A stretch of 64,000 nt of DNA from Alphaproteobacteria bacterium (GTDB taxonomy: Bacteria > Pseudomonadota > Alphaproteobacteria > RF32 > CAG-239), in assembly GCA_016288295.1 (NCBI GenBank), contig JAEEYV010000039.1, positions 10,156 to 74,155 of the forward strand. Direction: 5' to 3'. Position numbers and translations under genes: made by a program. Shown here piece by piece: positions 5,116 through 19,484 of the stretch (positions are counted from its first letter, which is position 1; every line of letters starts with the position of its first letter). The notes below the pieces were generated by a model. That model was not told the origin of the DNA, ran no database searches, and worked only from the letters and a program-made list of their open reading frames with translations.

Positions 5116-5769
5116 ATGATTGAAATTGCTTTTGACAAACATTTAGATCCTTTCTTTAAGGAGCAAGAACACCCCTTATTGGATGTACCTGACTTATGCA
5201 ACAAACCCTTTGATGCATACATTTCATATGCACAAAAGGCAATTAAACAGTACCGATCTCAAAAATATTTAATTGCCATATCCGACGACAGTCATTTTGA
5301 CACCAACCTTTTGTCATTAGCATTTTTTATTGCCTCCTGTTTAGATAATCAAAATACTGTTGACTGCCTTGTAATTAAAAATGAAAACTATAAAAAAGCA
5401 TTTGAAAATTACAAACCTTATATTGCTATTTCAATCGGCATCAAATATGCATTGCGCTTGATAAAAGAACCAGCCGATGTTATATATAAAGAACTTAAAT
5501 GTCTTAACTATCTAAATTTTTCAATTAAAGAAGATTGTGTACAAAACACTATATGCTACACTTTCAATTCTCAAAACACATCATATATTACAACAAACAA
5601 TACCTTTGAGGCACTAGTTTATGCCTCACTTTACAAAATTCTTGCTCTGGCAGAAATTGAAATTCCATTTAACCTAAACATTAGAATAACTAGTGATACT
5701 AGAGATATAGATGCTAAAGAAATAATTTCAACTATATTAGAAAAAGTATCACCCTATATTAACATTTAA
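5116..5769 (+). CDS. hypothetical protein, 217 aa
   Basis: ORF in the track. No motif recognised. Confidence 0.5.
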   Translation: MIEIAFDKHLDPFFKEQEHPLLDVPDLCNKPFDAYISYAQKAIKQYRSQKYLIAISDDSHFDTNLLSLAFFIASCLDNQNTVDCLVIKNENYKKAFENYKPYIAISIGIKYALRLIKEPADVIYKELKCLNYLNFSIKEDCVQNTICYTFNSQNTSYITTNNTFEALVYASLYKILALAEIEIPFNLNIRITSDTRDIDAKEIISTILEKVSPYINI

Positions 5770-5774
5770 CTCCT

Positions 5775-6386: not shown

Positions 6387-6740
6387 AATATTGCCTTATA
6401 ACACTTTTTACCTAATTTAGCAAGTACTTCAAACATTATGGGTTAAAGTTTTTTATCCTTATCACACTTATACATAAACAAGAAGTCCTCCAACAGTTAG
6501 CCGGAGGACTTTGTGTTTATAGGTAGCAGGCTATTCTTTGTGCTACAAGGACGTACCATACTAGCACACCAACAAAAAACACCCTTGTCCCAATACACAT
6601 TAATTCTAAAAAAATCAGAAACACAAGTATTTTGACAAAATATAAAAAAATCTAAAAAAATATTGACAAAGATTTAAAAATATGTTACATATACATCTGT
6701 ACAAGTCAGTATTATGTTTCATTATTAAAAGTAAGAATTC

Positions 6741-6986
6741 ATGAAAAAGAAAAAAAAGAAAGGTATGGTGACAAAACTTCGCCTTTTGCCACTGTACTGG
6801 AAAGTAATTGGAACGATTGCTATCTTCGGTGGCGGCGGTTGCTTGGCAAGTCAGTTGGTTACATCAGGGAGCGACGTGGGAGTATTTACAGGCATCATTC
6901 TTGCAGTGCTCGCTCTGTGGTTGCTCATTAACATGTGGCTACCCACAAAGGAGACTAACCCCCCCAAAAAACATCAACACAGTTGA
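6741..6986 (+). CDS. small membrane protein, 81 aa (2 TM), Lys-rich N-terminus
   Basis: ORF in the track, in a visibly G+C-richer patch shared with the downstream SPFH gene. Confidence 0.45.
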   Translation: MKKKKKKGMVTKLRLLPLYWKVIGTIAIFGGGGCLASQLVTSGSDVGVFTGIILAVLALWLLINMWLPTKETNPPKKHQHS

Positions 6987-7032
6987 TAACAATTTCAAAA
7001 AACAATTAAAAACAATTAAAAACAATTTGATC

Positions 7033-7920
7033 ATGAAGAAGAAAAATTTTTTGGTTATGGTTATGGCCATTTTTGTGGTCACAGTTTTCTCGTCGTGCAC
7101 TAGGGTCCCTCAGGGAACATTCGCGACCAAGACCTACGAATACGGAGACAGGAAGGGCGAGGTAGATATTCTTGGCCCAGGGTTGTATGCCAACCATTGG
7201 TTTGGCCGCTTTCACATCTACGTGTACCCCGCCAATGTGCAACAACACAGTTGGGTGAAAAGGAAAGATTCCGATGAACGGATCGCGTTCCAAGCCGAAG
7301 CTATGACGCTCAAGGCCGAAATAAACATCGAGTATGAGTTCTCGACCGTCGATGACGATCGCCGCAAAATGTACGTTTATTTCAAACGTACACCGCAAGA
7401 GATCGAAGAACAATTTATGAAGAAGGATATCGTGTCAGCGTTCAACACAGTATCGCAGACACTATCTGTCGAAGATGTTTATTCGACAAGAAAGGATAGC
7501 GTGAGGATTGCTGTACAGCAGATCGTACGAGACAAATATGCGCCTTACGGAATCCACATCAAAGAAGTAGCATACATGTCGCCCATTGATGTTCCTGAAG
7601 AAGTACGGGAAACGATAAATGCAAAAATTACGGCGACACAAGAGGCACAAAGGCGCGAAAATGAAGTTGCTAGCGAAAGAGCTGAGGCAATGAAAAAAAT
7701 TGAAAGGGCTCGCGGTGAAGCTGAAAGCATTAAAATCGCTGCTCAAGGCCGCGCGGAGGCAATTGACATAGAAGGTGCAGCCTTGCGTCGAAACCCCGAC
7801 ATCCTAAAATTGAAGCGCATCGAAACCCAAGCCATCGCAGCAAAATCAGCAGAAAACTGGAACGACCCAGTATTAGCTGCCGATCAAGCCAGTATTCTGC
7901 TAGGATTGGGTAAAGAGTAA
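7033..7920 (+). CDS. SPFH/band-7 (prohibitin/HflC-like) domain lipoprotein
   Basis: Start set at MKKKNFLV with lipobox VFSSC. SPFH-type core followed by an Ala/Glu/Arg-rich coiled coil (EAQRRENEVASERAEAMKKIERARGEAES). Confidence 0.75.
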   Translation: MKKKNFLVMVMAIFVVTVFSSCTRVPQGTFATKTYEYGDRKGEVDILGPGLYANHWFGRFHIYVYPANVQQHSWVKRKDSDERIAFQAEAMTLKAEINIEYEFSTVDDDRRKMYVYFKRTPQEIEEQFMKKDIVSAFNTVSQTLSVEDVYSTRKDSVRIAVQQIVRDKYAPYGIHIKEVAYMSPIDVPEEVRETINAKITATQEAQRRENEVASERAEAMKKIERARGEAESIKIAAQGRAEAIDIEGAALRRNPDILKLKRIETQAIAAKSAENWNDPVLAADQASILLGLGKE

Positions 7921-7937
7921 CCAAAAAACATTCACTC

Positions 7938-9701: not shown

Positions 9702-9777
9702 TGGCAGGGGCAGTAAGATTCGAACTCACGACACTCGGTTTTGGAGACCGATGCTCTACCAACTGAGCTATACCCCT
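9702..9777 (-). tRNA. tRNA-Trp (anticodon CCA), complete, CCA-3' encoded
   Basis: Folded by hand from the minus strand. Acceptor AGGGGTA/TGCCCCT. D arm GCTC-AGTTGGTA-GAGC. Anticodon arm TCGGT-CTCCAAA-ACCGA. T arm GTGAG-TTCGAAT-CTTAC. Discriminator G then CCA. Close to E. coli tRNA-Trp as I recall it. Confidence 0.93.
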
Positions 9778-9779
9778 AA
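9737..9779. repeat. left att core: 43-bp direct repeat (tRNA-Trp nt 1-41 plus 2 nt upstream)
   Basis: Identical to 19368-19410. Confidence 0.9.
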
Positions 9780-9791
9780 CGCTTGAAAATG

Positions 9792-9820
9792 CTTATAAAA
9801 CATTTCATCTCACAAATCAA
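9792..9820 (-). promoter_or_regulatory. putative promoter driving the intact tRNA-Trp (lies inside the element)
   Basis: Minus strand: TTGATT (9815-9820), 17-nt spacer, TATAAG (9792-9797), 14 nt before tRNA position 1. Confidence 0.5.
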
Positions 9821-10152
9821 GAACTTTTTTTATAATCCGCACACTTATTGCTTTTCAGCGGTTTTTGCCTTTAAAAAATCCTCATCTAAAGGAAGAATTT
9901 TTGACTTTTGTAAATGTCTGAATTTCTAACGATTAGACACCTGTAAAATCTTTTCCCTTTTTTATCCCTAAAGCCTTTCGGACATACCTATTTACAATGT
10001 TTTTGTTGGGGGTAAATCAAACCTCGTTAGCCTCAAAAGCCTCATTAGGTTTTGGCTTTTTTGCCCCACACCCTTAGTATGGCGGTTATTTTTTAAAGTT
10101 ACCAGACTTATTTTCTTAATTTTCAATAGGTTGGGGATAGTTATGGCATATT

Positions 10153-10974
10153 TTAAAATAAACTGTTTTGAATAACATTTGGCAAAGGGAATAATCCTAT
10201 AATAATGAAAGGATTTTTTGCTCGCCCGTGAAATTGTCTTGTTGTTCCTAAAAAGAAGTATAAATCTTTCTTTTTTGCATAATCTTCAAAAAACTTTTCT
10301 TTAATTTTTTGAAGTGCCATTTCTTCACTACCATAATGTTTTTTCCAGTTCCAAAATGCCGCACCAACTTCCCAGTCCTCAATCATTAAAGTAGATCGCT
10401 TGCCATTAATATCTTCAAAGATATATGAAAATTTATAGGGTAATTTATCTACAATCTTAAACACATCAACATCTTCATCTTTATTTGAAAATAAACTTAA
10501 TTGTTTTCTTTCAGCTTCTATAGCAGCCAATCTTTCTTTTGGGTACTCCCTGGAATCTTCTTCCCAGATAAAATCTATAATTTTCTTAGGTTTAAAAACT
10601 GCTAAAGACATATTGGTGGTGTTTGATTGTTTGATAAGTTTCGATAAATCATCATAAATTGCTTTTTTCAAAACAATATTACTTTTGCGTCCCCAGTCAT
10701 TAGATTTAATTTGTTCTAGTAGTTTTATCCTCTCGTAATCAACTTTATAACTCTCAATGCGTGGATCATCGTTTCCTTTATACATCCTAGCTTCAATCCA
10801 TCTATATTTACCATATTGTTTGTCATCATCTAACTTTCTAAATGGAATTGGATATAGTCTGTACCAATTTCCATCCTCATCCATACCGGCAGTACAAACA
10901 AGTTCTACATATTTCTTAGATATTGATGGATAAGTTTTTACAAGAATCAAAATTTTTTTAGTTATAAAGTCCAT
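10153..10974 (-). CDS. hypothetical protein, 273 aa, no family recognised (KTYP...VCTAG...WYRLYPIPFR N-terminal block)
   Basis: ORF in the track. Its ATG (10972-10974) directly abuts the TAG stop (10975-10977) of the upstream gene. Confidence 0.7.
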   Translation of the reverse strand: MDFITKKILILVKTYPSISKKYVELVCTAGMDEDGNWYRLYPIPFRKLDDDKQYGKYRWIEARMYKGNDDPRIESYKVDYERIKLLEQIKSNDWGRKSNIVLKKAIYDDLSKLIKQSNTTNMSLAVFKPKKIIDFIWEEDSREYPKERLAAIEAERKQLSLFSNKDEDVDVFKIVDKLPYKFSYIFEDINGKRSTLMIEDWEVGAAFWNWKKHYGSEEMALQKIKEKFFEDYAKKKDLYFFLGTTRQFHGRAKNPFIIIGLFPLPNVIQNSLF

Positions 10975-11853
10975 CTATATATGCTCCAATTCTAAATCTG
11001 GTCTCTTTTTGATTATAGCATTTGCTACTCTAGCACGGTGACACATATGGTAATCTGCTTCAAAACAGGTTAAGGCAACACGCTTATAGCGTTCTATCAA
11101 GTCAAGAATTTTATCTAAATAATATTCAGACTTAGCTAATGTCGTTTTTTCATATATTGAAAATAATTTGTTATAATCTGCCATAGTATTTAATTCAGTT
11201 CTTTGTTCAGACTCTATACCTAATTCAGGAATATTTATATAGGACAAACCAACCCGTTCTATTATATTTTGCATAGATGATTTAGAAAATCCATACTTCC
11301 TACTTATAGGATTTCGCCGAACATCACATACCAACTTGACATTATTTTGAATTAATCTGTTAATATAGCCATCTATACTGTCAGCTTCATATCCGATAGT
11401 AAAAAGTTTTCGTTTATTTGAAACTTCCAGTGTATATCTATTGGAATCTGGGCAGATTCTATCAAATATTTCACTTTTTAGAGTATAATATGGGTATTTT
11501 TCATATACATACTTAATTAAGTCATCTCCCTTATATTTGGAGTATATTTCCTTAAACTTTACAATTTTACTCTTATCAGAATTTTCTAATAATGAAATAA
11601 AATCAGCTTCTTTATCTCTTAACTCAATCTTATCGTTATAGGTGATATATTGGGATTGTTCCAAATTTCTAATATCTGCATAAGATTGGAAAGAAAAACA
11701 ACCAAACCTATAAGGAACAAAGGTATAATCCTTTTTATCTTTTGGTTGGCATATTTGTGTATATAAAAATAAATATTTTTGAAAATCTGTTTTATCAAGA
11801 CATCCACCAAATGCCTGCAAAAGCGATAAAACTAATTTTTGCCTGTAAAACAT
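10975..11853 (-). CDS. DUF488 domain protein with an N-terminal extension of about 150 aa (possibly SocA/Panacea DUF4065-like)
   Basis: C-terminal half carries DUF488 hallmarks: LVCDVRRNPISRKYGFSK, GLSYINIPELG, ALTCFEADYHMCHR. The N-terminus FQKYLFLY...FVPYRFGCFSF resembles the xLQKLLYx...yGP pattern. That assignment is from memory only. Confidence 0.7.
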   Translation of the reverse strand: MFYRQKLVLSLLQAFGGCLDKTDFQKYLFLYTQICQPKDKKDYTFVPYRFGCFSFQSYADIRNLEQSQYITYNDKIELRDKEADFISLLENSDKSKIVKFKEIYSKYKGDDLIKYVYEKYPYYTLKSEIFDRICPDSNRYTLEVSNKRKLFTIGYEADSIDGYINRLIQNNVKLVCDVRRNPISRKYGFSKSSMQNIIERVGLSYINIPELGIESEQRTELNTMADYNKLFSIYEKTTLAKSEYYLDKILDLIERYKRVALTCFEADYHMCHRARVANAIIKKRPDLELEHI

Positions 11854-11941
11854 TGTATTTCCTTAAATGATCTTTATAAGGTGATAATATATAAAAATAA
11901 AAGAATTTCAATAATTTTATTTAATTCTGCAATGGGGAATA

Positions 11942-12292
11942 TTAAAACTTAGTGAGCTCTAAAAGAGCTTCAATTTGTTTTTGAATGGTTTTGAGCGTAC
12001 GTGTGTCTTGGTTTTTAATCAGTTTTAATATGGCTTGCACATTCTCCGGCAGTTCCTCAATCGGTGGTTGCTCGTTGTCACTAAACAAAGAATCCACCGG
12101 AACATTCAAAGCTTCAGCCAAAGATAACAAAGTTGTTATTTTCGGATCGCTTAAACCTCGTTCTATATTGGAAATTGTGTTAATCATCTTGCCGGAAACT
12201 TCCGCAAATTCTTCTTGGTTCATTCCTTGTTGTTTGCGGAGTGTGGCAATTCGTCTACCTAAAGTTTTTAAAATTATATTTGATTCGGTCAT
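11942..12292 (-). CDS. XRE-family helix-turn-helix transcriptional regulator
   Basis: LRKQQGMNQEEFAEVSGKMINTISNIERG is a classic HTH_3 motif. 116 aa. Confidence 0.85.
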   Translation of the reverse strand: MTESNIILKTLGRRIATLRKQQGMNQEEFAEVSGKMINTISNIERGLSDPKITTLLSLAEALNVPVDSLFSDNEQPPIEELPENVQAILKLIKNQDTRTLKTIQKQIEALLELTKF

Positions 12293-12321
12293 ATTCAGCC
12301 TTTCAGATCACCGGTTATTTT

Positions 12322-12335
12322 CACATTTTAATGTG
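12322..12335. promoter_or_regulatory. palindromic candidate operator in the divergent XRE/nuclease intergenic region
   Basis: CACATTttAATGTG perfect 6-bp arms. A related cacattacactgtg lies at about 12398-12411, overlapping the -10 of the nuclease promoter. Confidence 0.35.
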
Positions 12336-12379
12336 TTAAATACCATAACGGTTGGCTGTGTTTTTTATTGTAATTTTGA

Positions 12380-12408
12380 TTGACACCGAATCTAATACAC
12401 ATTACACT
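12380..12408 (+). promoter_or_regulatory. putative promoter of the PD-(D/E)XK gene
   Basis: TTGACA (12380-12385), 17-nt spacer, TACACT (12403-12408). GGAG lies 9 nt before the ATG at 12450. Confidence 0.5.
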
Positions 12409-12449
12409 GTGTTTATGTTTTGCGATTATTCATAGTGGAGTGTATAAAA

Positions 12450-13376
12450 ATGAATCAGCCGAATATTTTTGATTATGCCACAAGTGAATTATCGCAAGAT
12501 GCTTTTCTTTGTTATATGTTGGCATTTGGAAAGGAAAAATATAAAAAGGATTTTCCTAATGAATACGTCATGGCACATATGTTTCTGGAAAAGTGTGAAA
12601 TTGATAAAAATGAAGAAATTTTATCAATCCAGCGTCAAGTAGATAATATAGATGTCTTAGTAGTAACGCAAAACTATATTCTTATTATTGAAGATAAGAC
12701 ATATACTAATGAACACGATGACCAAATCATTCGCTATGTTCGGAATATGCGTTCTCATGAAGAAAAGATTAATTCCGATAAGAAAATCAAAGTGTGTTAT
12801 TTCAAAACTGGAAATTATGTATATGGATATAAATCCTCCGATTGTTCTATTCTTCCGCAAAACGATTGCTGTTCACTCAAACGCCAAGATATGTTGGATA
12901 TTTTAAAGGATAAATGTTTCGGCAACATAATTTTTGAAAGTTTTTATCAACGGCTCAACTCTGTAGAGGAACGTGTAAAAGCCTGTGATGACACTGATAT
13001 TATGACTTGGAATAGCGAAAAATGGTTTGATTATCTTTATAATACATTGCAGGGGCATAATTTTAATATAGGTTGGGTACCTAATGCGAGCGGTGGTTTT
13101 TATGGCTGTTGGTTTGATTGGCGTGATGTGCTTAGCGGTGAAGATTACAAACAAATAGAAGTTTCTTTTGCCGACGGGAAAACATCACAAGTTAAATTGT
13201 GCTATAAGTTCTCCAGTAAAAGCAAAGAAATAACGCTTAATAGTAAATCTTTGTTAAAAGATTTACAGAGCAAGGTTGCGAAAGGTTTTAAATCAGCTAA
13301 TCGCATGGGAAAAACAACAACATATGCTTATAAAATCGCTGAAAACAAAAGTGATGTAGAAAAATTTATAGGATAA
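12450..13376 (+). CDS. PD-(D/E)XK nuclease superfamily protein
   Basis: N-terminal NIFDYATSELSQDAFLCYML block, typical of stand-alone PDDEXK proteins. Core IDVLVVTQNYILIIEDK (D...E-x-K) followed by DDQIIRY. Start set at the ATG at 12450. Confidence 0.7.
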   Translation: MNQPNIFDYATSELSQDAFLCYMLAFGKEKYKKDFPNEYVMAHMFLEKCEIDKNEEILSIQRQVDNIDVLVVTQNYILIIEDKTYTNEHDDQIIRYVRNMRSHEEKINSDKKIKVCYFKTGNYVYGYKSSDCSILPQNDCCSLKRQDMLDILKDKCFGNIIFESFYQRLNSVEERVKACDDTDIMTWNSEKWFDYLYNTLQGHNFNIGWVPNASGGFYGCWFDWRDVLSGEDYKQIEVSFADGKTSQVKLCYKFSSKSKEITLNSKSLLKDLQSKVAKGFKSANRMGKTTTYAYKIAENKSDVEKFIG

Positions 13377-13391
13377 GGAATAGATAATAAA

Positions 13392-13862
13392 ATGAATAAA
13401 ATACATAAATATTTTTTATTTGCATTTGGTTTTTCTTTTGTGGGGTATATTATTTGCAAATACTCTTTTTTACCAATTTGCAAATTCATTGCAAGCTTTT
13501 TTGATTGTGATTATGCGGTAGTTGCTTTGGGCATCTATCTGATAATTTTTGTTATTATTGGGTATGTGTTGAAAATGGTGAAAACAGATATAACAACGGA
13601 AACTTATTACAAAAATAATTTTACACCGGCAAAAGCCATTATATTAGCAACTATATTAATATTTTTTCACATTAATTTAATAAAAGACACCACAAGAATG
13701 GACAAAGAGGGGAAAATTTTAAACTTATACAGCACAATATTTGCTGAAAAATCTGAGAATAACAATATTAAGGAGGTAAAAAATGAGACAAATATTAAAG
13801 CCACAAAAAATAATGATTTTAGTTCTGATTCTGATACTGACGGGATGCGCTACAGAGATTAA
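13392..13862 (+). CDS. hypothetical membrane protein, 156 aa
   Basis: ORF in the track with 3-4 hydrophobic segments. Its 3' end overlaps the next gene by 80 nt, so the true extent is uncertain. Confidence 0.4.
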   Translation: MNKIHKYFLFAFGFSFVGYIICKYSFLPICKFIASFFDCDYAVVALGIYLIIFVIIGYVLKMVKTDITTETYYKNNFTPAKAIILATILIFFHINLIKDTTRMDKEGKILNLYSTIFAEKSENNNIKEVKNETNIKATKNNDFSSDSDTDGMRYRD

Positions 13863-14007
13863 ATCCTTACCAGAAATCGTTTCTACAAATGATTTTTGCA
13901 AAATATATGAGCCAATGTTACCTAGCCGAAAAGATACAAAGGAAACAGCTGAGCATGTTTTCAAATATTATAAAATCTGGAAAGAAAAATGTCATAACAG
14001 CAACTAG
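13783..14007 (+). CDS. small lipoprotein, 74 aa
   Basis: AAGGAGG 7 nt upstream of the ATG. Signal peptide with lipobox LTGC. Confidence 0.6.
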   Translation: MRQILKPQKIMILVLILILTGCATEIKSLPEIVSTNDFCKIYEPMLPSRKDTKETAEHVFKYYKIWKEKCHNSN

Positions 14008-14019
14008 AGGGTTTGTCTA

Positions 14020-14409
14020 ATGAAATCATATTTATTGTTATTAGTATTTGCATGGCTGATAGTGAAATGTTGGGGATTTTTCATATTTTTTAGTATATGT
14101 GTTATTATTTTTTATTTCAGATGCTTTTCGCATTTGATAATGGTAAAAAAAACAAGGAATCATATTTGTGAGCTTATGCTTAAATATGACGATGAAGAAA
14201 TTGTTTCTCGTATTTTAAATCAAAGTTTTTGGATTGGACAAACTGCTTCACAATTACTAGATTCTTTGGGCAATCCAGCTGATATTAGCGAATGGCGTAG
14301 TACTAAAGAATTTGGTGAAACATGGAAATATATTCAAACCGGTAAAAATCGTTATGCCTTAAAAATATATCTTGTCAATGATCAGGTTAGTGGATGGGAT
14401 AAAAAATGA
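14020..14409 (+). CDS. membrane-anchored protein, 129 aa, with a BamE/SmpA-OmlA-like C-terminal domain (tentative)
   Basis: N-terminal TM segments. C-terminal FWIGQTASQLLDSLGNPADI...WKY...KIYLVNDQVSGW resembles the small beta-sandwich lipoprotein pattern. Confidence 0.45.
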   Translation: MKSYLLLLVFAWLIVKCWGFFIFFSICVIIFYFRCFSHLIMVKKTRNHICELMLKYDDEEIVSRILNQSFWIGQTASQLLDSLGNPADISEWRSTKEFGETWKYIQTGKNRYALKIYLVNDQVSGWDKK

Positions 14410-14801
14410 GAAATATTAATCGCTTAAAGGAAGAAAAATTTTCATTCGGAATTAATGATATTATAAAAGATGCTACTATAGCATTTGTAGTTTGCTTGAT
14501 ATTATATTTATTTACCCAGCAATCCTTTATATTTGTTTTATTTATACCATTTTCTATCGCAGCAATAATTGGTGATTTAGTGAGAAAATATACAAGACCG
14601 AACGCTATTTCTACTAGAGGAAAAGCTTGGAAAGTATTGAATAATAAAATTTATTGGAGTATAGGACCTCAGATTGAAGCAATAATTTTATCTATTTTCT
14701 TTTTTTATATTTTTGTTCAAATGATAGGGGCAATTTCTTCACCTGAAAATCAAAAAAATGTAATATCCAATGTAAGAGAATCCGTTAGTTACAGGGATTA
14801 A
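14406..14801 (+). CDS. hypothetical membrane protein, 131 aa
   Basis: ATGA overlap with the upstream gene. Three hydrophobic segments. Confidence 0.5.
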   Translation: MRNINRLKEEKFSFGINDIIKDATIAFVVCLILYLFTQQSFIFVLFIPFSIAAIIGDLVRKYTRPNAISTRGKAWKVLNNKIYWSIGPQIEAIILSIFFFYIFVQMIGAISSPENQKNVISNVRESVSYRD

Positions 14802-14883
14802 ATGATATATTTCCGACTATATTTGTGACGCGTCGTTAGAACAATGGCGCGTTTGTTTTTTTATTTCATGAAAGGTAAAAACA

Positions 14884-15174
14884 ATGGCGCAAATATATGC
14901 TACAAATGATATATATTTTTTTCCGAAGGTGGTAAAAGTGTTTTTAGTTAGCGATAAATACGAAGCTGATTTATGGTTCTACAAAACAAGAGATATTTAT
15001 GAGGCTGATTGCAAAGATGAAATTTGGTATTTTTCCGATAGTGAATATGGTGCAACAGCAGTTATTTGTTGGGTTGATGATAAATATGATGCAGATATTT
15101 GGGTTTATCAGGTTCGGGATAAATACGAAGCTAGATGGAATAAAGGCAATAAATTTTTAGGGCGGCTAAGTTAA
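14884..15174 (+). CDS. small repeat protein, 96 aa, five D-x-Y-[EDG]-A-[DTR] units (DUF6150-like, tentative)
   Basis: Repeats DKYEADLWFY, DIYEADCKDEIWYF, SEYGATAVICWV, DKYDADIWVY and DKYEARW are visible in the translation. Confidence 0.55.
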   Translation: MAQIYATNDIYFFPKVVKVFLVSDKYEADLWFYKTRDIYEADCKDEIWYFSDSEYGATAVICWVDDKYDADIWVYQVRDKYEARWNKGNKFLGRLS

Positions 15175-15181
15175 CAAATCA

Positions 15182-15210
15182 AAAGGGCGAACCATTGAGA
15201 CTCGCCCTTT
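15182..15210. terminator. bidirectional terminator between cargo and replicase genes
   Basis: aaagggcga / tcgcccttt stem, 11-nt loop, T-rich on both strands. Confidence 0.7.
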
Positions 15211-15231
15211 CTGCTTTCCTTTTTCTAATTT

Positions 15232-17577
15232 TTAATAATTTTCTGCCAAAGCGTAAACTTCGGGATTTACATAATAAGTAGTCCGGCGTTTGCCTTTGGT
15301 TGTTCCGGCGCGTGTGCATTCATAACGTAGCCAATTCAGCTCCACCAATCTTTTAGCGGCAGTTTCTGTCGGCTCCTTGCGGCGCAGATATTTTACCGTG
15401 CCATTGTTATAAACATCACGTAAAATAAAGCTTTCAGGTTTGTTTTCGATAATCCATCGAGCCAATGCTCGTGCCTCAATATTATATACCGGACTATAAT
15501 ACATATAATAAACACGTTCACACATAGGTAATAAATAGGTATCGTAAAGATTTATAGCTGCCTTGACCGCGTCTTCGCTGACTTCTGTCGGCTCAGTAAA
15601 TTCCGAATTACTCCACCACAAAAGCTCTAAAAGTAACGCAAGCCTAAGGACATAACCTTGTCCTTTGCCAAGAAAATATTTGATATTGCTTTCTTCCTGC
15701 TGGGTTCTGGTTAAATGTTCAATATACCAAGTGCTAAAAACATCTTTTGCTTTTATACTTAATGGCAAGCATTTTTTCTGTTCTTCTGCAAAATCTGCAT
15801 ATGGATTTAATAAAGTATCCAGTTTTTGCAATGCTTTAAGCGCGGTTTCCGGCAAAGCAATATTTTGCGGTATAGCAGGCGGTATCACCGCTGGATACAC
15901 CCAAAGAAAGCGGGCAAGGAAGCCGTCGCCGCGCTCATCAAAAACCGTGTCTACGAGCCTTTGAGGCTGTATAGTGCCGAACACCGATACCAACAGATTT
16001 TTAATTTCTAATCGGTCGTCGTCATATTTAACGCGGTCGCATACAAACTTGTGCCCGTTAAATGCCTCGAGCCAAAAACCGCGCTCGGAACTGCCGCTGT
16101 TGTAACGATTCATACCACAAATCCACGCCGACAATTCATCGCGGAAAAGAATAGCCCCCTTTATGTTGCGCTCCATATCTTTGGTGATTGCCTCTTGTGT
16201 AGTATCACCGTAAACAAAGCGATATGTTTGCGGTTTTGCCGGAATAATAGCGGCATTTGGAAAATTGCTTGCAGTATCGGGATTTTCTTTGACCTTTTCT
16301 TCCCATTCTTTTTTGCGTTGCTTAGCAACTTCTCTAGTACGTTTCCATTCTGCTAGTTTTGCAAAATAAGGCTCTTTATGGTCTTCCTCAATTTGATTCA
16401 AAATACGCCGAATAGGAGTAGTTGCCGGTGTTTTGCCGGAGCTTGGCTCTCCGACAGCACCAATCCATAAACAGCATGGTTCAATCCATTCAGCCCAAGG
16501 TGAAACAGAACGCGACAAACCAATAACACCTGCTGCGCCGGCTAGCAATGAAAATGCCACATAGTCAACCGGCGCATTAGTATTTTGTGCCGTTTGCACT
16601 ACCCACGGCTCCAAGCTTTTAAATATGCTTGTATCAAGCCGTGGCGCCGGTAACAAGTCCTTAGTTTTAAGAATATCCATATCCGGTTCTGTGTCTGCTT
16701 GATTATCGCTGTGAGCTTCTGAAAACTTGATAGCATTGCTAACTGTTTTTACTGTCTCTGCTTTTGTTAATCCTGATTCAAGCGCGGCATTTACAACATC
16801 TTCTTTGATTTCAGAAATATCGCGAAATTGCCTATCTGCACTATTACAAATTTTGATAGTATTACTTAACAATCTATCGTTCCGTGTTCCCTCAGGAGCG
16901 TTGGCTATTTCATCAAGCAACATATCAATATCTGTTTTTTCGGGATTGTTAATTAAATCAATCAACCATTCTGGTGCAGTTGGAAAATCTTGACTAAAGT
17001 CAAAATTAACCCAAGTATATTTATTACCGTTTTCGTGAATAGATGGTGGTGCTACAACATAGCCTCCATTACCGCGTATATCAATATGCGGAGCTATTTT
17101 ACTCGTACTGCATTTGATTTCTACCCATTCCGGCATTTTGAAATACAAATGCTTACCTTTTCCGGTGCTAACGGTCGGGGCTTTGAGTTTACCATATTTA
17201 TTTTCAAACTCAGCTAAAGATTTTGCGCCGCTTTCACCATCTACATCAACAACAAAGATATTATTGATTGCTCCGGTCGGAATGCCTATATTGCAATCTG
17301 GAAATTGCTTATTCCATTCCTGCAATACGACTTTATCAGCGGTTGCGTCATTAAAACCATGCGGGCAAAGCGGTGATTTGCCTTGCTTTTTTACCGGAAA
17401 GGTTTTAATATTGCTTTGTGCGTAAAATGTAGCAATATCCAAAAAGTTGGTCGCTTCGTTGATATTGCAAACATTTTGGTTATTGAGAGCAGATGCGCTA
17501 ACATCTTCTCTCGGAGGGAGTGGAGAGGCTTGCGCCTCTCGCTCCATTTGTTCAATTAAAATGTTTTTTAGTTTCAT
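15232..17577 (-). CDS. bifunctional Prim-Pol domain fused to a P-loop NTPase (DUF3987/YfjI- or D5-like) replicase
   Basis: N-terminal PLCPHGFNDAT...IFVVDVDGE...GKGKHLYF...IDIRGNGGYVVAPPSIHENGNKYTW is the Prim-Pol pattern. Central Walker A GEPSSGKTPA. 781 aa. Confidence 0.85.
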   Translation of the reverse strand: MKLKNILIEQMEREAQASPLPPREDVSASALNNQNVCNINEATNFLDIATFYAQSNIKTFPVKKQGKSPLCPHGFNDATADKVVLQEWNKQFPDCNIGIPTGAINNIFVVDVDGESGAKSLAEFENKYGKLKAPTVSTGKGKHLYFKMPEWVEIKCSTSKIAPHIDIRGNGGYVVAPPSIHENGNKYTWVNFDFSQDFPTAPEWLIDLINNPEKTDIDMLLDEIANAPEGTRNDRLLSNTIKICNSADRQFRDISEIKEDVVNAALESGLTKAETVKTVSNAIKFSEAHSDNQADTEPDMDILKTKDLLPAPRLDTSIFKSLEPWVVQTAQNTNAPVDYVAFSLLAGAAGVIGLSRSVSPWAEWIEPCCLWIGAVGEPSSGKTPATTPIRRILNQIEEDHKEPYFAKLAEWKRTREVAKQRKKEWEEKVKENPDTASNFPNAAIIPAKPQTYRFVYGDTTQEAITKDMERNIKGAILFRDELSAWICGMNRYNSGSSERGFWLEAFNGHKFVCDRVKYDDDRLEIKNLLVSVFGTIQPQRLVDTVFDERGDGFLARFLWVYPAVIPPAIPQNIALPETALKALQKLDTLLNPYADFAEEQKKCLPLSIKAKDVFSTWYIEHLTRTQQEESNIKYFLGKGQGYVLRLALLLELLWWSNSEFTEPTEVSEDAVKAAINLYDTYLLPMCERVYYMYYSPVYNIEARALARWIIENKPESFILRDVYNNGTVKYLRRKEPTETAAKRLVELNWLRYECTRAGTTKGKRRTTYYVNPEVYALAENY

Positions 17578-17906
17578 TTCATACCTCCGCTTTTATAACT
17601 AAAAATTTGTGGTCGACTTTTAATAATTTCATTTTTTGTATTCTCCTTTTCATTTTCGGGGTTGCAAAATTTCTTTTTTATGTATAGGATTACATCGTTT
17701 ACATCATAGTAAGCTTTGCCGTTTACGTAGTAAACTTCGCCTATTCCTTTTTCTGGGTTTTCATAATCAATATTTCGTAATGTGTTTCTGCTCAGAAATG
17801 GGAGTATTTCGCAAAGCTTAACTCGGCTAATTAAAGGTGCTTGTTCGAGAAGTTTACTTTTGTAAATTTCAAAGAATCTTGGCGATAAATCATTGTTTTT
17901 CTTCAT
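17574..17906 (-). CDS. AlpA/excisionase-like HTH DNA-binding protein
   Basis: ISRVKLCEILPFLSRNTLRNI...VNGKAYYDVNDVILYI fits the MerR-type Xis/AlpA fold pattern. Start set at MKKNND (AGGAA RBS). Stop overlaps the replicase ATG (ATGA). Confidence 0.6.
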   Translation of the reverse strand: MKKNNDLSPRFFEIYKSKLLEQAPLISRVKLCEILPFLSRNTLRNIDYENPEKGIGEVYYVNGKAYYDVNDVILYIKKKFCNPENEKENTKNEIIKSRPQIFSYKSGGMK

Positions 17907-18066
17907 TTTTCGTTTCCTTTTTCGAAAGTTATGAAAAAACACCATTGTTTTTTCGCGCTATAACGACCAAAGACCTCAATTCACCTTTTTTGGGTGCAAA
18001 AATATTTTGAGTGCGGAACTAAAAAAAAGCCCCGAAATAATAAACAAAATAATATGTTAAACTGCT

Positions 18067-19194
18067 CTAATTAAGCTTAGAAACAGCCTCTCGTAGCGTT
18101 TCATTTGCCAAGTGTGAATAGCGTTGAGTCATTGCAATATCGGAATGTCCTAACAGTTCTTTGACTTCGTAAAGTGAAACGCGTTTTTGCACTAACCGAC
18201 TGGCAAATGTGTGCCTTAAAGAATGAAAAACTACTTTTTGCCTGCGGTCTGTAACACCTTTATTTAATCCCAATGCTTTGACTGCACGTTCAAAAGTGCG
18301 TGAAACGTGTTCTATTTTCTTTCCCTCTCTGCTTTGAAAGATTAATTCATTGCCTTCATGCTGTTTTAATTTTGAAAGTTCATCAAAAACACGGTCTGTC
18401 ATATAGGCATAACGATTCTTACTATTTTTGGTATCACGCAAAAATAGCATTTTTTCTTCTAGGCTTACATCTGCCCAAGTAAGTCTGAAAATTTCTCCGG
18501 CGCGTAGTCCGCAATCGGCGGAAATAAGTGCCATTACATAAACTTGATAGCTATGTTTCTTTATTTCTGTTAAAAGATTGTTTAAATCTTCTTCGCTTAA
18601 AAACTTTACACGTTGATTATCTTCCTTTTTCAGCTCGTCAAATCTTGCTGCTGGATTTTCCCCTGCAAATAGCTCATATTTAATTGCAAAATTGAAAACT
18701 TGTCGCGTTAGTGCAATAGCATAGCGTTTCGTACGATTAGATAAATGTTTTTTATCCATAGCTTGAATTAACCTAGTGAGGCTTTTGAGGCTAATGAGGT
18801 TTAACTTAACATCTCCCAAAAAAGGTCTAAGCCATACTTTATATAGGTTAACTTCTCTGTCATATGTTGATTTTTTGTCTTTATTTTGAATATGCGGCTG
18901 ATAATATTCTTCAAAAAGCTCCGAGAACGTCATATTTGCCGCCTCATTAGCAATTCTTTCTTGTTCGCGTTGGTTGTTTTTATCGCGTAAAGAAGATACT
19001 TTACCTGCTTTTATATCTTGTTTTAATTCTTTTAAAATTTCGTAGGTTTTTTCTGCCGTAAATCCGTCTGATTTATAACCGATGCCTTCTTCACACTGCT
19101 TACCGTTTTTGGTATAGCGAATAGAAAAGTAAATATCTTTTCTACCATTTCTTATGCGATTTGCTGTTCGCACTCCAGGAAAACTTTTTACCAT
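18067..19194 (-). CDS. tyrosine recombinase / phage-type integrase
   Basis: C-terminal catalytic blocks: ADCGLRAGEI (Arg), HSLRHTFAS (H-x-x-R), LGHSDIAMTQRYSH (His, Tyr). Start set at MVKSFPG with a GGAGA RBS. Confidence 0.9.
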   Translation of the reverse strand: MVKSFPGVRTANRIRNGRKDIYFSIRYTKNGKQCEEGIGYKSDGFTAEKTYEILKELKQDIKAGKVSSLRDKNNQREQERIANEAANMTFSELFEEYYQPHIQNKDKKSTYDREVNLYKVWLRPFLGDVKLNLISLKSLTRLIQAMDKKHLSNRTKRYAIALTRQVFNFAIKYELFAGENPAARFDELKKEDNQRVKFLSEEDLNNLLTEIKKHSYQVYVMALISADCGLRAGEIFRLTWADVSLEEKMLFLRDTKNSKNRYAYMTDRVFDELSKLKQHEGNELIFQSREGKKIEHVSRTFERAVKALGLNKGVTDRRQKVVFHSLRHTFASRLVQKRVSLYEVKELLGHSDIAMTQRYSHLANETLREAVSKLN

Positions 19195-19367
19195 TTCAAA
19201 ATCTCCGTTTCGGTTTATCTGATACCTAAAGTATACCGAAACGGTTCGGAAAATCGAGAACACCTAGGTACGCCAAGGTACGCTAGGCAAAAAATTTTTT
19301 TTGCTTAAACTGTTTGAAAAATCAATAAAAAATGTGGAAATTTAAATACTTGGAAAATTCTATTTTG

Positions 19368-19410
19368 GGTTTTGGAGACCGATGCTCTACCAACTGAGCT
19401 ATACCCCTAA
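19368..19410. repeat. right att core: orphan 5' half of tRNA-Trp
   Basis: Identical to 9737-9779. The sequence to its left (19321-19367) has no similarity to the tRNA 3' half. Confidence 0.9.
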
Positions 19411-19422
19411 TGACTGGATAGA

Positions 19423-19450
19423 TTAATACACTATCCTAAAAATAAATCAA
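19423..19450 (-). promoter_or_regulatory. putative native tRNA-Trp promoter, now driving only the tRNA fragment
   Basis: Minus strand: TTGATT (19445-19450), 16-nt spacer, TATTAA (19423-19428), 14 nt before tRNA position 1. The -35 region aaaagtgcTTGATTt is nearly identical to that at 9815-9829. Confidence 0.45.
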
Positions 19451-19484
19451 GCACTTTTTCACCTATCACTAATTTCCTTCAAGA

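What the first reader, a model, noticed from the sequence alone, without database searches (positions are those of the whole stretch)
9737..19410. Integrative element in tRNA-Trp bounded by a 43-bp repeat of the tRNA 5' half, mirroring the usual 3'-end geometry
Seen: 9737-9779 and 19368-19410 are identical (ggttttggagaccgatgctctaccaactgagctatacccctaa). On the minus strand this is tRNA-Trp nt 1-41 plus 2 upstream nt. Only the left copy continues into the tRNA 3' half (9702-9736). The integrase gene lies next to the orphan 5'-half fragment, not next to the intact gene. Established: tRNA-targeting tyrosine integrases normally cross over in the anticodon or T loop. Their attP carries the tRNA segment from that point to the 3' end, so the duplicated block is 3'-terminal. 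Here the identity block runs from the 3' side of the anticodon stem to the 5' end. Inference: after insertion the functional gene is a chimera of a chromosomal 3' half and an element-supplied 5' half.
Basis: partly seen in the sequence, partly recalled or inferred. Interest (0 to 1): 0.65.

Follow-up and report, generated by a model that had tools for sequence, protein, structure and literature searches.

The report
Mobile element replacing tRNA-Trp's front half
A 9.6-kb mobile element sits in the tryptophan tRNA gene of a gut alphaproteobacterium and rebuilds the gene by supplying its front half and probably a promoter, a mirror image of the usual arrangement that is already known but rarely seen in bacteria.

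Summary
Bases 9737-9779 and 19368-19410 are an exact 43-bp direct repeat. It covers tRNA-Trp(CCA) nucleotides 1-41 plus 2 upstream bases. Only the left copy continues into the 3' half, giving an intact tRNA at 9702-9777 on the minus strand.

Between the copies lie an intact tyrosine integrase, a PrimPol/DUF3987 replicase, an HTH regulator and a candidate defence gene pair (PADLOC PDC-M19).

A strain with 99.25% identical flanking DNA (L091) has the empty site. Its native promoter runs straight into the full tRNA, and its identity to the window's right flank stops exactly at tRNA position 41.

Ten related elements in other gut and rumen Alphaproteobacteria show the same layout. Each carries a conserved A-tract, TTGATT, 17 bp, TATAAG motif upstream of the half it supplies.

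The nearest integrase relatives target tRNA-His in the usual way, duplicating positions 25-29 to 76. More distant relatives do the same with tRNA-Lys, Asn, Arg and Thr. All blocks share the anticodon loop, next to the same integrase-side arm. The Trp clade therefore uses the anticodon stem-loop flipped.

The kind is already described but rare: Zhao and Williams 2002 in bacteria, pTN3-like elements in archaea. I class this as a new member of a known kind, of moderate interest.

The parts
9702..9777 (-). Regenerated tRNA-Trp(CCA) gene at the junction far from the integrase. Nt 42-76 (9702-9736) are chromosomal. Nt 1-41 lie in the identity block, and the part up to the crossover is element-supplied.
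   Evidence: ARAGORN; Rfam 68.3 bits; cloverleaf fold; 100% identical to the tRNA of the empty-site strain L091.
9737..9779 (-). Left copy of the 43-bp identity block (tRNA nt 1-41 plus 2 upstream nt).
   Evidence: Exact repeat, none expected by chance.
9792..9831 (-). Promoter-like region supplied by the element: A-tract (9825-9831), -35-like TTGATT (9815-9820), 17-bp spacer, -10-like TATAAG (9792-9797). The second hexamer ends 14 nt upstream of tRNA +1.
   Evidence: The motif and its position relative to tRNA +1 (within one base) are conserved in 9 of 9 element-supplied upstream regions. CTTGATTT occurs only 8 times in the window, and 2 of these are at the two tRNA 5'-half copies. The simple sigma-70 scan does not call it, because the sixth base of the second hexamer is G.
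10153..11853 (-). Cargo: a two-gene candidate defence system. PDC-M19A (10975-11853) contains DUF488. PDC-M19B is at 10153-10974.
   Evidence: PADLOC E 1.2e-102 and 8e-100; DUF488 in Pfam.
11942..12292 (-). Cro/CI-type HTH regulator.
   Evidence: Pfam HTH_3 E 8e-16; PHROGs transcriptional regulator or repressor; conserved in related elements.
12420..15174 (+). Accessory genes: PD-(D/E)XK_4 nuclease-like (12420-13376), three ORFs of unknown function (13392-13862, 14020-14409, 14406-14801) and DUF6150/Septknot (14884-15174).
   Evidence: Pfam. They are 96-100% identical in protein sequence to the L012 element.
15232..17577 (-). PrimPol plus DUF3987 primase-helicase, the presumed replication protein of the element.
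   Evidence: Pfam E 2e-41 and 1e-61; PHROGs primase and helicase; present in every family member.
17574..17945 (-). Small ORF (123 aa) between the integrase and the replicase. Its function is unknown. An excisionase or regulator role is only a guess from its position.
   Evidence: No hit in Pfam, PHROGs, PADLOC or NCBIfam. A weakly conserved ORF holds the same position in relatives.
18067..19194 (-). Tyrosine integrase (375 aa from the ATG at 19194).
   Evidence: PF00589 E 2.9e-33. The catalytic residues R231, K256, H324, R327, H350 and Y359 are invariant in a 14-sequence alignment. More than 100 homologue clusters share 74-91% identity.
19195..19367 (-). Integrase-side arm of the attachment site. 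It holds two tandem GCGTACCT repeats (19266-19273 and 19276-19283), inferred to be arm-type binding sites. It also holds the conserved segment CAAAATAGAATTTTCCAAGTATTTAAATTTCC, which follows the block directly.
   Evidence: Conserved across the Trp-clade loci. Exact GCGTACCT occurs only at these two places in the window. The first bases after the block (ACC|CCAAAT) are shared with the canonical tRNA-His relative L096.
19368..19410 (-). Right copy of the identity block: the orphan chromosomal tRNA-Trp 5' fragment next to the integrase.
   Evidence: The match between L091 and the window's right flank ends exactly at 19368.
19423..19458 (-). Native tRNA-Trp promoter-like region, now pointing at the orphan fragment and the integrase gene: -35-like TTGATT (19445-19450), 16-bp spacer, -10-like TATTAA (19423-19428).
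   Evidence: In the empty-site strain the identical sequence lies directly upstream of the intact tRNA (L091 9130-9181). The motif is shared by all 9 native upstream regions examined.

Best explanation
Bases 9780-19367, together with one copy of the 43-bp block (9,631 bp in all), form an integrative element. It has a tyrosine integrase, a PrimPol-helicase replicase, an HTH regulator and variable cargo. It inserted by site-specific recombination into the anticodon stem-loop of the host's tRNA-Trp gene.

Its attachment site (attP) is built as a mirror image of the usual one. Read towards the integrase gene, it contains a promoter-like region, tRNA-Trp nt 1-41, an integrase-side arm of about 173 bp, and then the integrase gene.

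Insertion joins the element's promoter and 5' half to the chromosomal 3' half (nt 42-76). This regenerates a full tRNA-Trp at the end of the element far from the integrase. The chromosomal promoter and 5' half are left as an orphan fragment just upstream of the integrase.

Shown here: the repeat, the intact and fragmentary tRNA copies, the empty site with exact boundaries, the same layout in a monophyletic integrase clade, and the usual 3'-half layout in its relatives.

Inferred: strand exchange takes place in the 7-nt anticodon loop. The conserved TTGATT-17-TATAAG motif is the promoter that now drives the tRNA. The flipped orientation arose because the two stem arms read the same on either strand, so only the loop fixes direction.
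For: Repeat, tRNA and fragment.

Element genes. Integrase catalytic residues.

Empty site: L091, L092 and L094 carry YicC-Gmk-LptF/G, a 180-aa ORF, an intact tRNA-Trp and the HIT-like gene with no element. L091 is 99.25% identical to the window up to base 19368, which is tRNA position 41.

Recurrence: L001/L012, L003-L007, L010, L011, L014-L016, L019 and L021 have integrases 74-86% identical to the window's. All have a 5'-half copy 171-176 bp upstream of the integrase. All have an intact, co-oriented tRNA-Trp 6.7-9.5 kb downstream (3.6 kb in the shortened copy L005). In nine of the ten loci tabulated the block ends at position 41, although the host flanks differ. L010 is the exception and runs to position 43.

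Relatives: tRNA-His elements L096 and L098 (66% and 62% identity) duplicate positions 29-76 and 25-81. Nine elements at about 40% identity, in tRNA-Lys, Arg, Asn and Thr, duplicate positions 26-32 to at least the 3' end (76, or 73 in the 72-nt tRNA-Thr). In all of them the tRNA lies on the strand opposite to the integrase. The two block types overlap only at positions 32-41, that is, the anticodon loop plus part of the stem.

Core comparison: Trp reads TCGGT-CTCCAAA-ACC|C(C)AAAT and L096 reads CCGGT-ACCACAA-ACC|CCAAATT.

Phylogeny (neighbour-joining, 200 bootstraps): Trp clade 199/200, sister to canonical L096 198/200, nested among tRNA-His users 200/200.

Promoter motif: conserved in 9 of 9 element-supplied and 9 of 9 native upstream regions.

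Recent mobility: presence or absence varies within one species. A copy of the integrase-proximal half, 97% identical over 4.6 kb with different cargo beyond it, sits in a different host context in L009.
Against: The crossover point is not shown experimentally. From this locus alone it could lie anywhere in the 43-bp block.

The simple sigma-70 consensus scan did not call either promoter. No expression data exist. The cargo operon points the same way as the tRNA, and no terminator was detected between them, so read-through could also transcribe the tRNA.

No unambiguous circular attP junction was recovered. L106 has an attP-like junction, but it could equally be a tandem copy or a remnant. L002 is simply a contig bounded by the repeat.

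In L010 the regenerated tRNA carries three G-to-C changes, two of which break base pairs. Not every copy is demonstrably functional.

The copy number of tRNA-Trp in the genome could not be checked.
Confidence: 0.85

Rival explanations
1. The element really uses the usual 3'-end layout, and the 5'-half repeat is incidental. It might be a leftover of another event, or a second, undetected 3' duplication might mark the true ends.
For: This is the default expectation from the literature for tRNA-targeting integrases (PMC1635311; PMC8371274). A degenerate tRNA 3'-end copy does exist beside this tRNA in the sister strain (L091 9788-9818).
Against: The window holds no second copy of the 3' half, even at 3 mismatches. 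Comparison with the empty site places both breakpoints exactly at the edges of the 43-bp block. The same 5'-half layout recurs in ten further independent loci. The degenerate 3' copy in L091 flanks a different 553-bp cutA1 segment, not this element.
Confidence: 0.02
2. The layout is as described, but strand exchange does not occur in the anticodon loop. It occurs elsewhere in the 43-bp block, for example in the D stem-loop or at the 5' end of the gene, so the element does not belong to the anticodon-loop class.
For: Within this locus, identity spans -2 to 41 with no internal mismatch to narrow down the crossover. In L010 the identity runs to position 43 and breaks at position 15, which does not fit the simple picture neatly.
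Against: In nine of the ten Trp loci tabulated the block ends at position 41 beside the integrase-side arm, while its other end varies from 0 to -10. Relatives with the usual layout have blocks starting at positions 25-32 beside the same arm. The only interval common to both is the loop plus part of the stem. Half-sites and arm-side bases are shared between the Trp clade and L096. Published mapping of classical integrases puts cleavage at the borders of the anticodon loop (PMC8371274).
Confidence: 0.12
3. The element-borne TTGATT-17-TATAAG motif is not what drives the regenerated tRNA. The tRNA is instead transcribed by read-through from the co-directional cargo operon, or it is poorly expressed and a second tRNA-Trp gene elsewhere covers the need.
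For: The consensus scan does not call the motif. The PDC-M19 genes point towards the tRNA, and no terminator was detected in the 375 bp between them. The regenerated tRNA in L010 looks damaged.
Against: The motif, its spacing and its distance from tRNA +1 are conserved across elements whose cargo differs completely. The same A-tract plus CTTGATTT signature precedes every native tRNA-Trp examined. The minimal 4.9-kb derivative L005 keeps the motif although it has lost the cargo.
Confidence: 0.15
4. The element is an immobile relic. The layout records an old event and the integrase no longer works.
For: No unambiguous circular junction was found. Remnants and shortened copies exist (L005; L107).
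Against: The integrase ORF is intact with all catalytic residues. The two repeats are 100% identical. Presence varies between strains that are 99.25% identical. The integrase-proximal half of the element (4.6 kb) recurs at 97% identity in a different host context (L009).
Confidence: 0.1

Closest known systems
[quoted passage not shown]
   Same: It is a tyrosine-integrase element that recombines with the 5' rather than the 3' part of a tRNA gene. PMC6563490 cites it as the bacterial example of the 'considerably less frequent' 5'-distal recombination.
   Different: The paper is not held in the library, so its host, tRNA and integrase could not be compared. I know its content only from its title and from how others cite it. 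The present family lives in uncultured gut and rumen Alphaproteobacteria. Its integrase has no phage relative above 32% identity and reaches no NCBIfam subfamily cut-off.
pTN3-like integrated plasmids and TKV4-type proviruses of Thermococcales (Cossu et al. 2017; Krupovic and Bamford 2008, as summarised in PMC8371274)
   Same: attB corresponds to the 5' half of a tRNA gene. An uninterrupted tRNA is restored and is expressed from an element-borne promoter rather than its original one.
   Different: Those are archaeal SSV-type 'suicidal' integrases. Their attP lies inside the integrase ORF, so insertion splits the integrase gene. Here the integrase gene stays intact and attP lies 173 bp upstream of it. 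In the archaeal elements the promoter is the integrase promoter. Here, in the integrated state, the supplied promoter sits at the end of the element opposite the integrase.
Classical tRNA-targeting islands and phages of the anticodon-loop class (Williams 2002; Islander database, PMC4383910)
   Same: They share a tyrosine integrase, an attP that carries part of the tRNA so the gene is regenerated, an identity block that ends at the anticodon stem-loop, and an integrase gene next to attP. The close relatives L096 and L098 (tRNA-His) and about nine more distant relatives are ordinary members of this class.
   Different: In the window's clade the half carried by attP is the 5' half. The tRNA is co-oriented with the integrase instead of opposed to it. 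A promoter also has to be supplied.
P4-like and PICI-like phage satellites, and small mobilisable defence islands
   Same: They share a similar size (about 5-11 kb) and a similar gene set: integrase, small ORF, primase-helicase replicase, Cro/CI-type regulator, and a variable cargo slot that holds candidate defence genes.
   Different: No capsid, packaging or helper-interaction genes were recognised. There are no close relatives in IMG/VR. Dependence on a helper phage is untested.

Membership tests
tRNA-integrated genomic island with tyrosine integrase (Islander definition) | An integrase of the tyrosine recombinase family is encoded within the island, with its catalytic residues intact. | tested here: met
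   PF00589 E 2.9e-33. R231, K256, H324, R327, H350 and Y359 are invariant in alignment A2.
tRNA-integrated genomic island with tyrosine integrase (Islander definition) | An intact tRNA gene and a co-oriented end fragment of the same gene bracket the island in an allowed configuration (5' fragment upstream of the gene, or 3' fragment downstream). | tested here: met
   The intact tRNA is at 9702-9777 (-) and the fragment, nt 1-41, is at 19368-19408 (-). The fragment lies upstream of the gene in the gene's own orientation. The configuration rule is quoted from PMC4383910.
tRNA-integrated genomic island with tyrosine integrase (Islander definition) | An uninterrupted target site exists in a related genome, with breakpoints at the repeat. 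| tested here: met
   L091, L092 and L094. The 99.25% identity ends at window base 19368, and the tRNA is 100% identical.
tRNA-integrated genomic island with tyrosine integrase (Islander definition) | The element excises to a circular form that carries attP. | tested here: inconclusive
   IMG/VR holds no close relative. The metagenome scan found an attP-like junction (L106) that cannot be told apart from a tandem copy or remnant. L002 is only a contig bounded by the repeat.
Elements that recombine with the 5' part of a tRNA gene (reversed orientation; Zhao and Williams 2002; pTN3-like) | The sequence shared by attP and attB is the 5' portion of the tRNA gene, so the element supplies the 5' part of the regenerated gene. 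| tested here: met
   The block covers nt -2 to 41. The empty-site comparison confirms the assignment. Ten further loci show the same layout.
Elements that recombine with the 5' part of a tRNA gene (reversed orientation; Zhao and Williams 2002; pTN3-like) | The regenerated tRNA is expressed from an element-borne promoter. | tested here: inconclusive
   A-tract, TTGATT, 17 bp, TATAAG is conserved at a near-fixed distance (within one base) in 9 of 9 elements and resembles the native promoters. The consensus scan does not call it, and there are no transcription data.
pTN3/SSV-type 'suicidal' integrases | attP lies inside the integrase ORF, so integration splits the integrase gene. | tested here: not met
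   The integrase ORF 18067-19194 is intact in the integrated state, and the block lies 173 bp upstream of its start.
Anticodon-loop class of tRNA integration sites (Williams 2002) | [quoted passage not shown] | tested here: inconclusive
   The block boundary is met: position 41 in nine of ten Trp loci, and 25-32 in relatives with the usual layout. The crossover position itself is inferred, not shown.
Phage satellites (P4-like or PICI-like) | Mobilisation depends on a helper phage, with genes that redirect packaging or capsid assembly. | not testable with these tools
   Only an integrase, a replicase and a regulator were recognised. No structural or packaging hits were found in PHROGs.

The most novel reading that the evidence does not exclude
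Integration swaps two promoters. In the free circular form, the element's tRNA-type promoter and the tRNA 5' half lie directly upstream of the integrase gene, pointing the same way. After insertion that promoter drives the host's tRNA-Trp. The integrase then sits downstream of the host's native tRNA-Trp promoter, behind an orphan half-tRNA leader.

If both promoters are active, two things follow. Integrase expression in the integrated state would track the host's tRNA (growth-rate or stringent) control. The host's supply of tRNA-Trp, probably from a single gene, would depend on a promoter the element brought in.

The same integrase family also contains a second non-canonical layout (tRNA-His elements of the L099 type) and ordinary members. 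It could therefore serve as a natural series for studying how attP sites are rebuilt.
Probability: 0.2. Interest if true: 0.6.

Novelty: new member of a known kind. Interest (0 to 1): 0.4.

Why it matters
It gives a clean bacterial example of a rarely documented arrangement, validated by an empty site: an integrative element rebuilds its tRNA target from the 5' side, and so very probably brings the promoter too.

The example is not a one-off. It is an abundant, monophyletic family in gut and rumen Alphaproteobacteria. One integrase variant alone is listed in 167 blocks of the assembly collection.

The family's nearest relatives use the ordinary layout on tRNA-His, with the same half-sites and the same integrase-side arm. 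The family therefore shows how a target switch can flip gene orientation: the stem arms read the same on both strands, and only the loop sets direction.

There is also a practical point. Prophage and island finders that look only for 3' tRNA fragments next to integrases would mis-map or miss these elements. Phage_Finder's stated logic is of this kind (PMC1635311).

Tried and rejected
- Exact-sequence look-up of the window's HIT-like flank protein found nothing. A homology search was needed instead and led to the empty site.
- The IMG/VR scan with the integrase gave only two remote, irrelevant hits. The element is not catalogued as viral.
- The simple sigma-70 and terminator scans did not call the promoter-like motifs, and called only a weak terminator-like hairpin upstream of the integrase. 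The promoter argument therefore rests on comparative conservation alone.
- The metagenome scan for an attP-type junction returned two contigs. One (L107) is a remnant or tandem context beside LptF/G. The other (L106) is too short upstream to separate a circle from a tandem copy.
- L002, whose length nearly equals the element's, is just a contig broken at the repeat with an 18-nt terminal overlap. It is not evidence of a circle.
- I first suspected that L009 and L010 were tandem arrays, because the sequence upstream of their fragment resembles the element's promoter. Their upstream genes proved to be host genes in L009 (L21, Obg, RsfS and an outer-membrane protein). In L010 they are LptF/G followed by about 2.7 kb of ORFs with no or only sub-threshold Pfam matches. 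None of the window element's proteins match upstream in either locus.
- A conserved RNA hairpin in the integrase leader was tested by RNAalifold. Covariation is weak, with a covariation term of -0.57 kcal/mol, so I make no claim.
- Zhao and Williams 2002, Williams 2002 and Mageeney 2020 are not held in the library. Precedent is cited through papers that cite them.
- The first bootstrap attempt timed out and was redone with a faster distance routine.

Full report

Yes. The 43-mer occurs exactly twice in the window, at 9737-9779 and 19368-19410. None of 100 shuffles produced a match (sequence).

ARAGORN finds a single tRNA in the 64 kb, tRNA-Trp(cca) at 9702-9777 on the minus strand. Rfam scores it 68.3 bits against a gathering score of 29, and it folds as a cloverleaf. 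On the minus strand the repeat covers tRNA nt 1-41 plus two upstream bases. It ends three bases into the 3' strand of the anticodon stem.

The right copy matches the tRNA model only over its 5' part, at 26.7 bits, which is below gathering. The 3' half (9702-9736) has no other copy in the window, even with 3 mismatches.

**2. What lies between the copies?**

A compact mobile-element gene set:

- a tyrosine integrase at 18067-19194 (-), with PF00589 E 2.9e-33;
- a small unknown ORF at 17574-17945 (-);
- a PrimPol plus DUF3987 primase-helicase at 15232-17577 (-);
- DUF6150, three unknown ORFs and a PD-(D/E)XK protein on the plus strand at 12420-15174;
- a Cro/CI-type HTH regulator at 11942-12292 (-);
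- a gene pair at 10153-11853 (-) that matches the PADLOC candidate defence system PDC-M19 A/B, at E 1e-102 and 8e-100.

Integrase homologues are 375-378 aa, so the integrase starts at 19194, 173 bp from the orphan fragment. The catalytic residues R, K, H-x-x-R, H and Y are invariant in a 14-sequence alignment.

The flanks are host genes. On the right are LptF/G, Gmk and YicC. On the left is a HIT-like protein.

**3. The empty site**

The HIT-like flank protein has a 97% identical homologue, P0121. Contigs carrying it (L091, L092, L094) show YicC, Gmk, LptF/G, a 180-aa ORF, tRNA-Trp and the HIT-like gene, with no element.

BLASTN gives three key matches:

- L091 1-9222 equals window 28590-19368 at 99.25%. 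The match stops exactly at the inner edge of the right repeat, which is tRNA position 41.
- L091 9180-9257 equals window 9779-9702 at 100%.
- L091 9811 onward continues into window 9709 and below.

In L091 the sequence that flanks the orphan fragment in the window (...GAAAAAGTGCTTGATTTATTTTTAGGATAGTGTATTAATCTATCCAGTCATT) runs straight into a complete tRNA-Trp. This is the uninterrupted attB.

It follows that the regenerated gene in the window consists of a chromosomal 3' half and an element-supplied 5' half. It also follows that everything upstream of 9779 on the minus strand came with the element. Its three stated refutation tests all fail to refute it.

**4. It is a property of a family**

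Integrases 74-86% identical to the window's are very common in gut and rumen metagenomes. More than 100 clusters were returned, and one variant alone is listed in 167 blocks of the collection.

I examined every locus that was long enough: L001/L012, L003-L007, L010, L011, L014-L016, L019 and L021. All are uncultured Alphaproteobacteria MAGs or gut metagenomes. In each one:

- a copy of tRNA-Trp starting between positions -10 and 0 (position 16 in L010) lies 171-176 bp upstream of the integrase;
- that copy ends at position 41 in nine of the ten loci tabulated, and at position 43 in L010;
- an intact, co-oriented tRNA-Trp lies 6.7-9.5 kb downstream of the integrase, or 3.6 kb downstream in the shortened copy L005.

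The host flanks differ between species (rsfS, secE-nusG or LptF/G on the fragment side). These are therefore independent host contexts.

**5. What the relatives do, and where the crossover probably is**

The next-closest integrases are L096 at 66% identity and L098 at 62%. Both target tRNA-His in the ordinary way. The tRNA sits at the far end, on the strand opposite the integrase. The block next to the integrase covers positions 29-76 in L096 and 25-81 in L098.

Nine relatives at about 40% identity, mostly from Desulfobacterota and related deltaproteobacterial MAGs, do the same with tRNA-Lys, Arg, Asn and Thr. [quoted passage not shown]

In all cases the block lies 150-260 bp upstream of the integrase, with its anticodon-loop end facing the integrase. 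The two block types overlap only at positions 32-41.

The junctions are alike when read towards the integrase:

- Trp clade: TCGGT-CTCCAAA-ACC|C(C)AAAT
- L096: CCGGT-ACCACAA-ACC|CCAAATT

They share the same stem half-sites and the same first arm bases. The loop is read on the opposite strand.

A neighbour-joining tree with 200 bootstraps gives these supports:

| Grouping | Bootstrap support |
|---|---|
| Trp clade monophyletic | 199/200 |
| Trp clade sister to canonical L096 | 198/200 |
| Trp clade nested among tRNA-His users | 200/200 |

My inference has three parts. Strand exchange occurs in the 7-nt anticodon loop, as in classical integrases (PMC8371274). The flipped layout is derived from the usual one. 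The flip was possible because a stem's two arms read identically on either strand, so only the loop fixes direction. None of this is experimentally shown.

**6. The promoter**

A tRNA rebuilt from the 5' side needs a promoter from the element. Upstream of the regenerated tRNA, all nine elements compared carry an A-tract, then CTTGATTT, a 17-bp spacer and TATAA(G/A). The distance from tRNA +1 is the same to within one base. In the window this is TTGATT at 9815-9820 and TATAAG at 9792-9797.

All nine native upstream regions, next to the orphan fragments, also carry the A-tract plus CTTGATTT. In those the distance to the tRNA varies. CTTGATTT occurs only 8 times on both strands of the window, and two of these are at these two sites.

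The tool's strict sigma-70 scan does not call either site, because the sixth base of the second hexamer is not T. The case is therefore comparative only.

In hosts L009 and L010 the native promoter is nearly identical to the element type. The 29 bases upstream of the tRNA in L010 equal those of the L012 element. This suggests the element's promoter and 5' half were captured from such a host. The reverse is also possible: some hosts may have inherited a promoter from a decayed element, as the remnant in L107 hints.

**7. Comparison with what is known**

Recombination with the 5' part of a tRNA gene is documented but uncommon.

- PMC6563490 calls it 'considerably less frequent'. It cites Zhao and Williams 2002 for bacteria and several archaeal cases.
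[quoted passage not shown] It adds that pTN3-like archaeal integrases use the 5' half and express the tRNA from the integrase promoter, a situation 'seldomly encountered in bacteria'.
- Islander's configuration filter allows a 5' fragment upstream of the gene.

The window's element is therefore a new, well-supported member of a known but rare kind. It is not a pTN3/SSV-type element, because its integrase gene is not split by insertion. The integrase has no phage relative above 32% identity and reaches no NCBIfam subfamily cut-off.

**8. Mobility**

Evidence for recent activity:

- the two repeats are identical;
- the integrase is intact;
- presence varies between strains that are 99.25% identical;
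- the integrase-proximal 4.6 kb of the element recurs at 97% identity in a different host context, L009, with different cargo beyond it.

A circular form was not demonstrated.

**9. Verdict**

Novelty is modest, because the mirror layout has precedent. Three things add value:

- the exact empty site;
- the conservation of the layout and of a supplied promoter across a whole clade;
- the finding that the closest relatives use the ordinary layout on a different tRNA with the same core half-sites.

Interest is 0.4.

Noticed in passing
L099 9632-9708 and 17269-17315; also L103 1-30 and L104 1317-1393: A sister integrase clade (53-61% identical to the window's) shows a second non-canonical layout on tRNA-His. 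The intact tRNA lies directly upstream of the integrase with its 5' end facing it. The 47-nt block repeated at the far end of the element covers tRNA positions -7 to 39. This is again a 5'-half block, but the tRNA keeps the usual orientation relative to the integrase. The supplied promoter would have to lie in the roughly 290 bp between the tRNA and the integrase gene, as in archaeal pTN3.
   Followed up: partly
window 9702-9709 versus L091 9258-9818: The empty-site strain carries a 553-bp segment encoding CutA1 between the tRNA-Trp 3' end and the downstream flank. The window lacks it. In L091 the segment ends with a degenerate copy of the tRNA T-arm and 3' end (TCGTGAATT...ACTGTTGACCCTACCA). 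It looks like the remnant of an ordinary 3'-side island at the same tRNA.
   Followed up: partly
window 6583-7921: A 1.34-kb segment carrying an SPFH/Band 7 ORF (6808-7920, G+C about 0.45 against about 0.30 around it) is absent from the otherwise collinear L091. This is a second strain-specific insertion or deletion.
   Followed up: no
window 10153-11853, compared with L001 17605-19323 and L003 16513-18525: The slot next to the regenerated tRNA holds different cargo in different family members. The window has the PDC-M19 candidate defence pair, L001 has GIY-YIG plus an AAA_21 ATPase, and L003 has a 670-aa unknown protein. This is the pattern of a small defence-carrying island.
   Followed up: partly
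L024 9737-9834 and 19319-19416: In a Desulfarculus MAG, a relative at about 43% identity is flanked by two full-length tRNA-SeC genes. They differ only by one compensatory base-pair change in the variable arm. Its attP therefore seems to carry a whole tRNA gene rather than a half.
   Followed up: partly
L010 20576-20651: The regenerated tRNA-Trp of this element has three G-to-C differences from the consensus (positions 15, 42 and 67). Two of them break base pairs. It is either a decaying copy or a MAG consensus error.
   Followed up: no
L009 9730-9790, L010 9730-9790 and L107 (reverse complement) about 5340-5770: In some hosts the promoter next to the orphan fragment is nearly identical to the element-type promoter. 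L107 has a remnant, an element-like ORF plus an element-type promoter, between host LptF/G and the block. Promoter capture by the element and promoter replacement in the host cannot be told apart here.
   Followed up: partly
L005 10001-14830: A 4.9-kb derivative sits in the same species and site as L003. It keeps only the integrase, the small ORF, the PrimPol-helicase, the promoter and the tRNA 5' half. This suggests these parts form the minimal element.
   Followed up: no
window 19205-19217 and 19232-19244: A 13-nt inverted repeat lies just upstream of, and abuts, the integrase ribosome-binding site. Relatives have different sequences with similar symmetry, but covariation support is weak.
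   Followed up: partly
L106 (reverse complement) 1-140: This 7.1-kb metagenome contig begins with element far-end sequence (TTAAACGCTGCAAACGCAATGTTTGCAAG...), followed by the promoter, the tRNA 5' half, the integrase-side arm and the integrase gene. That is the junction expected for circular attP, but a tandem copy would look the same.
   Followed up: partly
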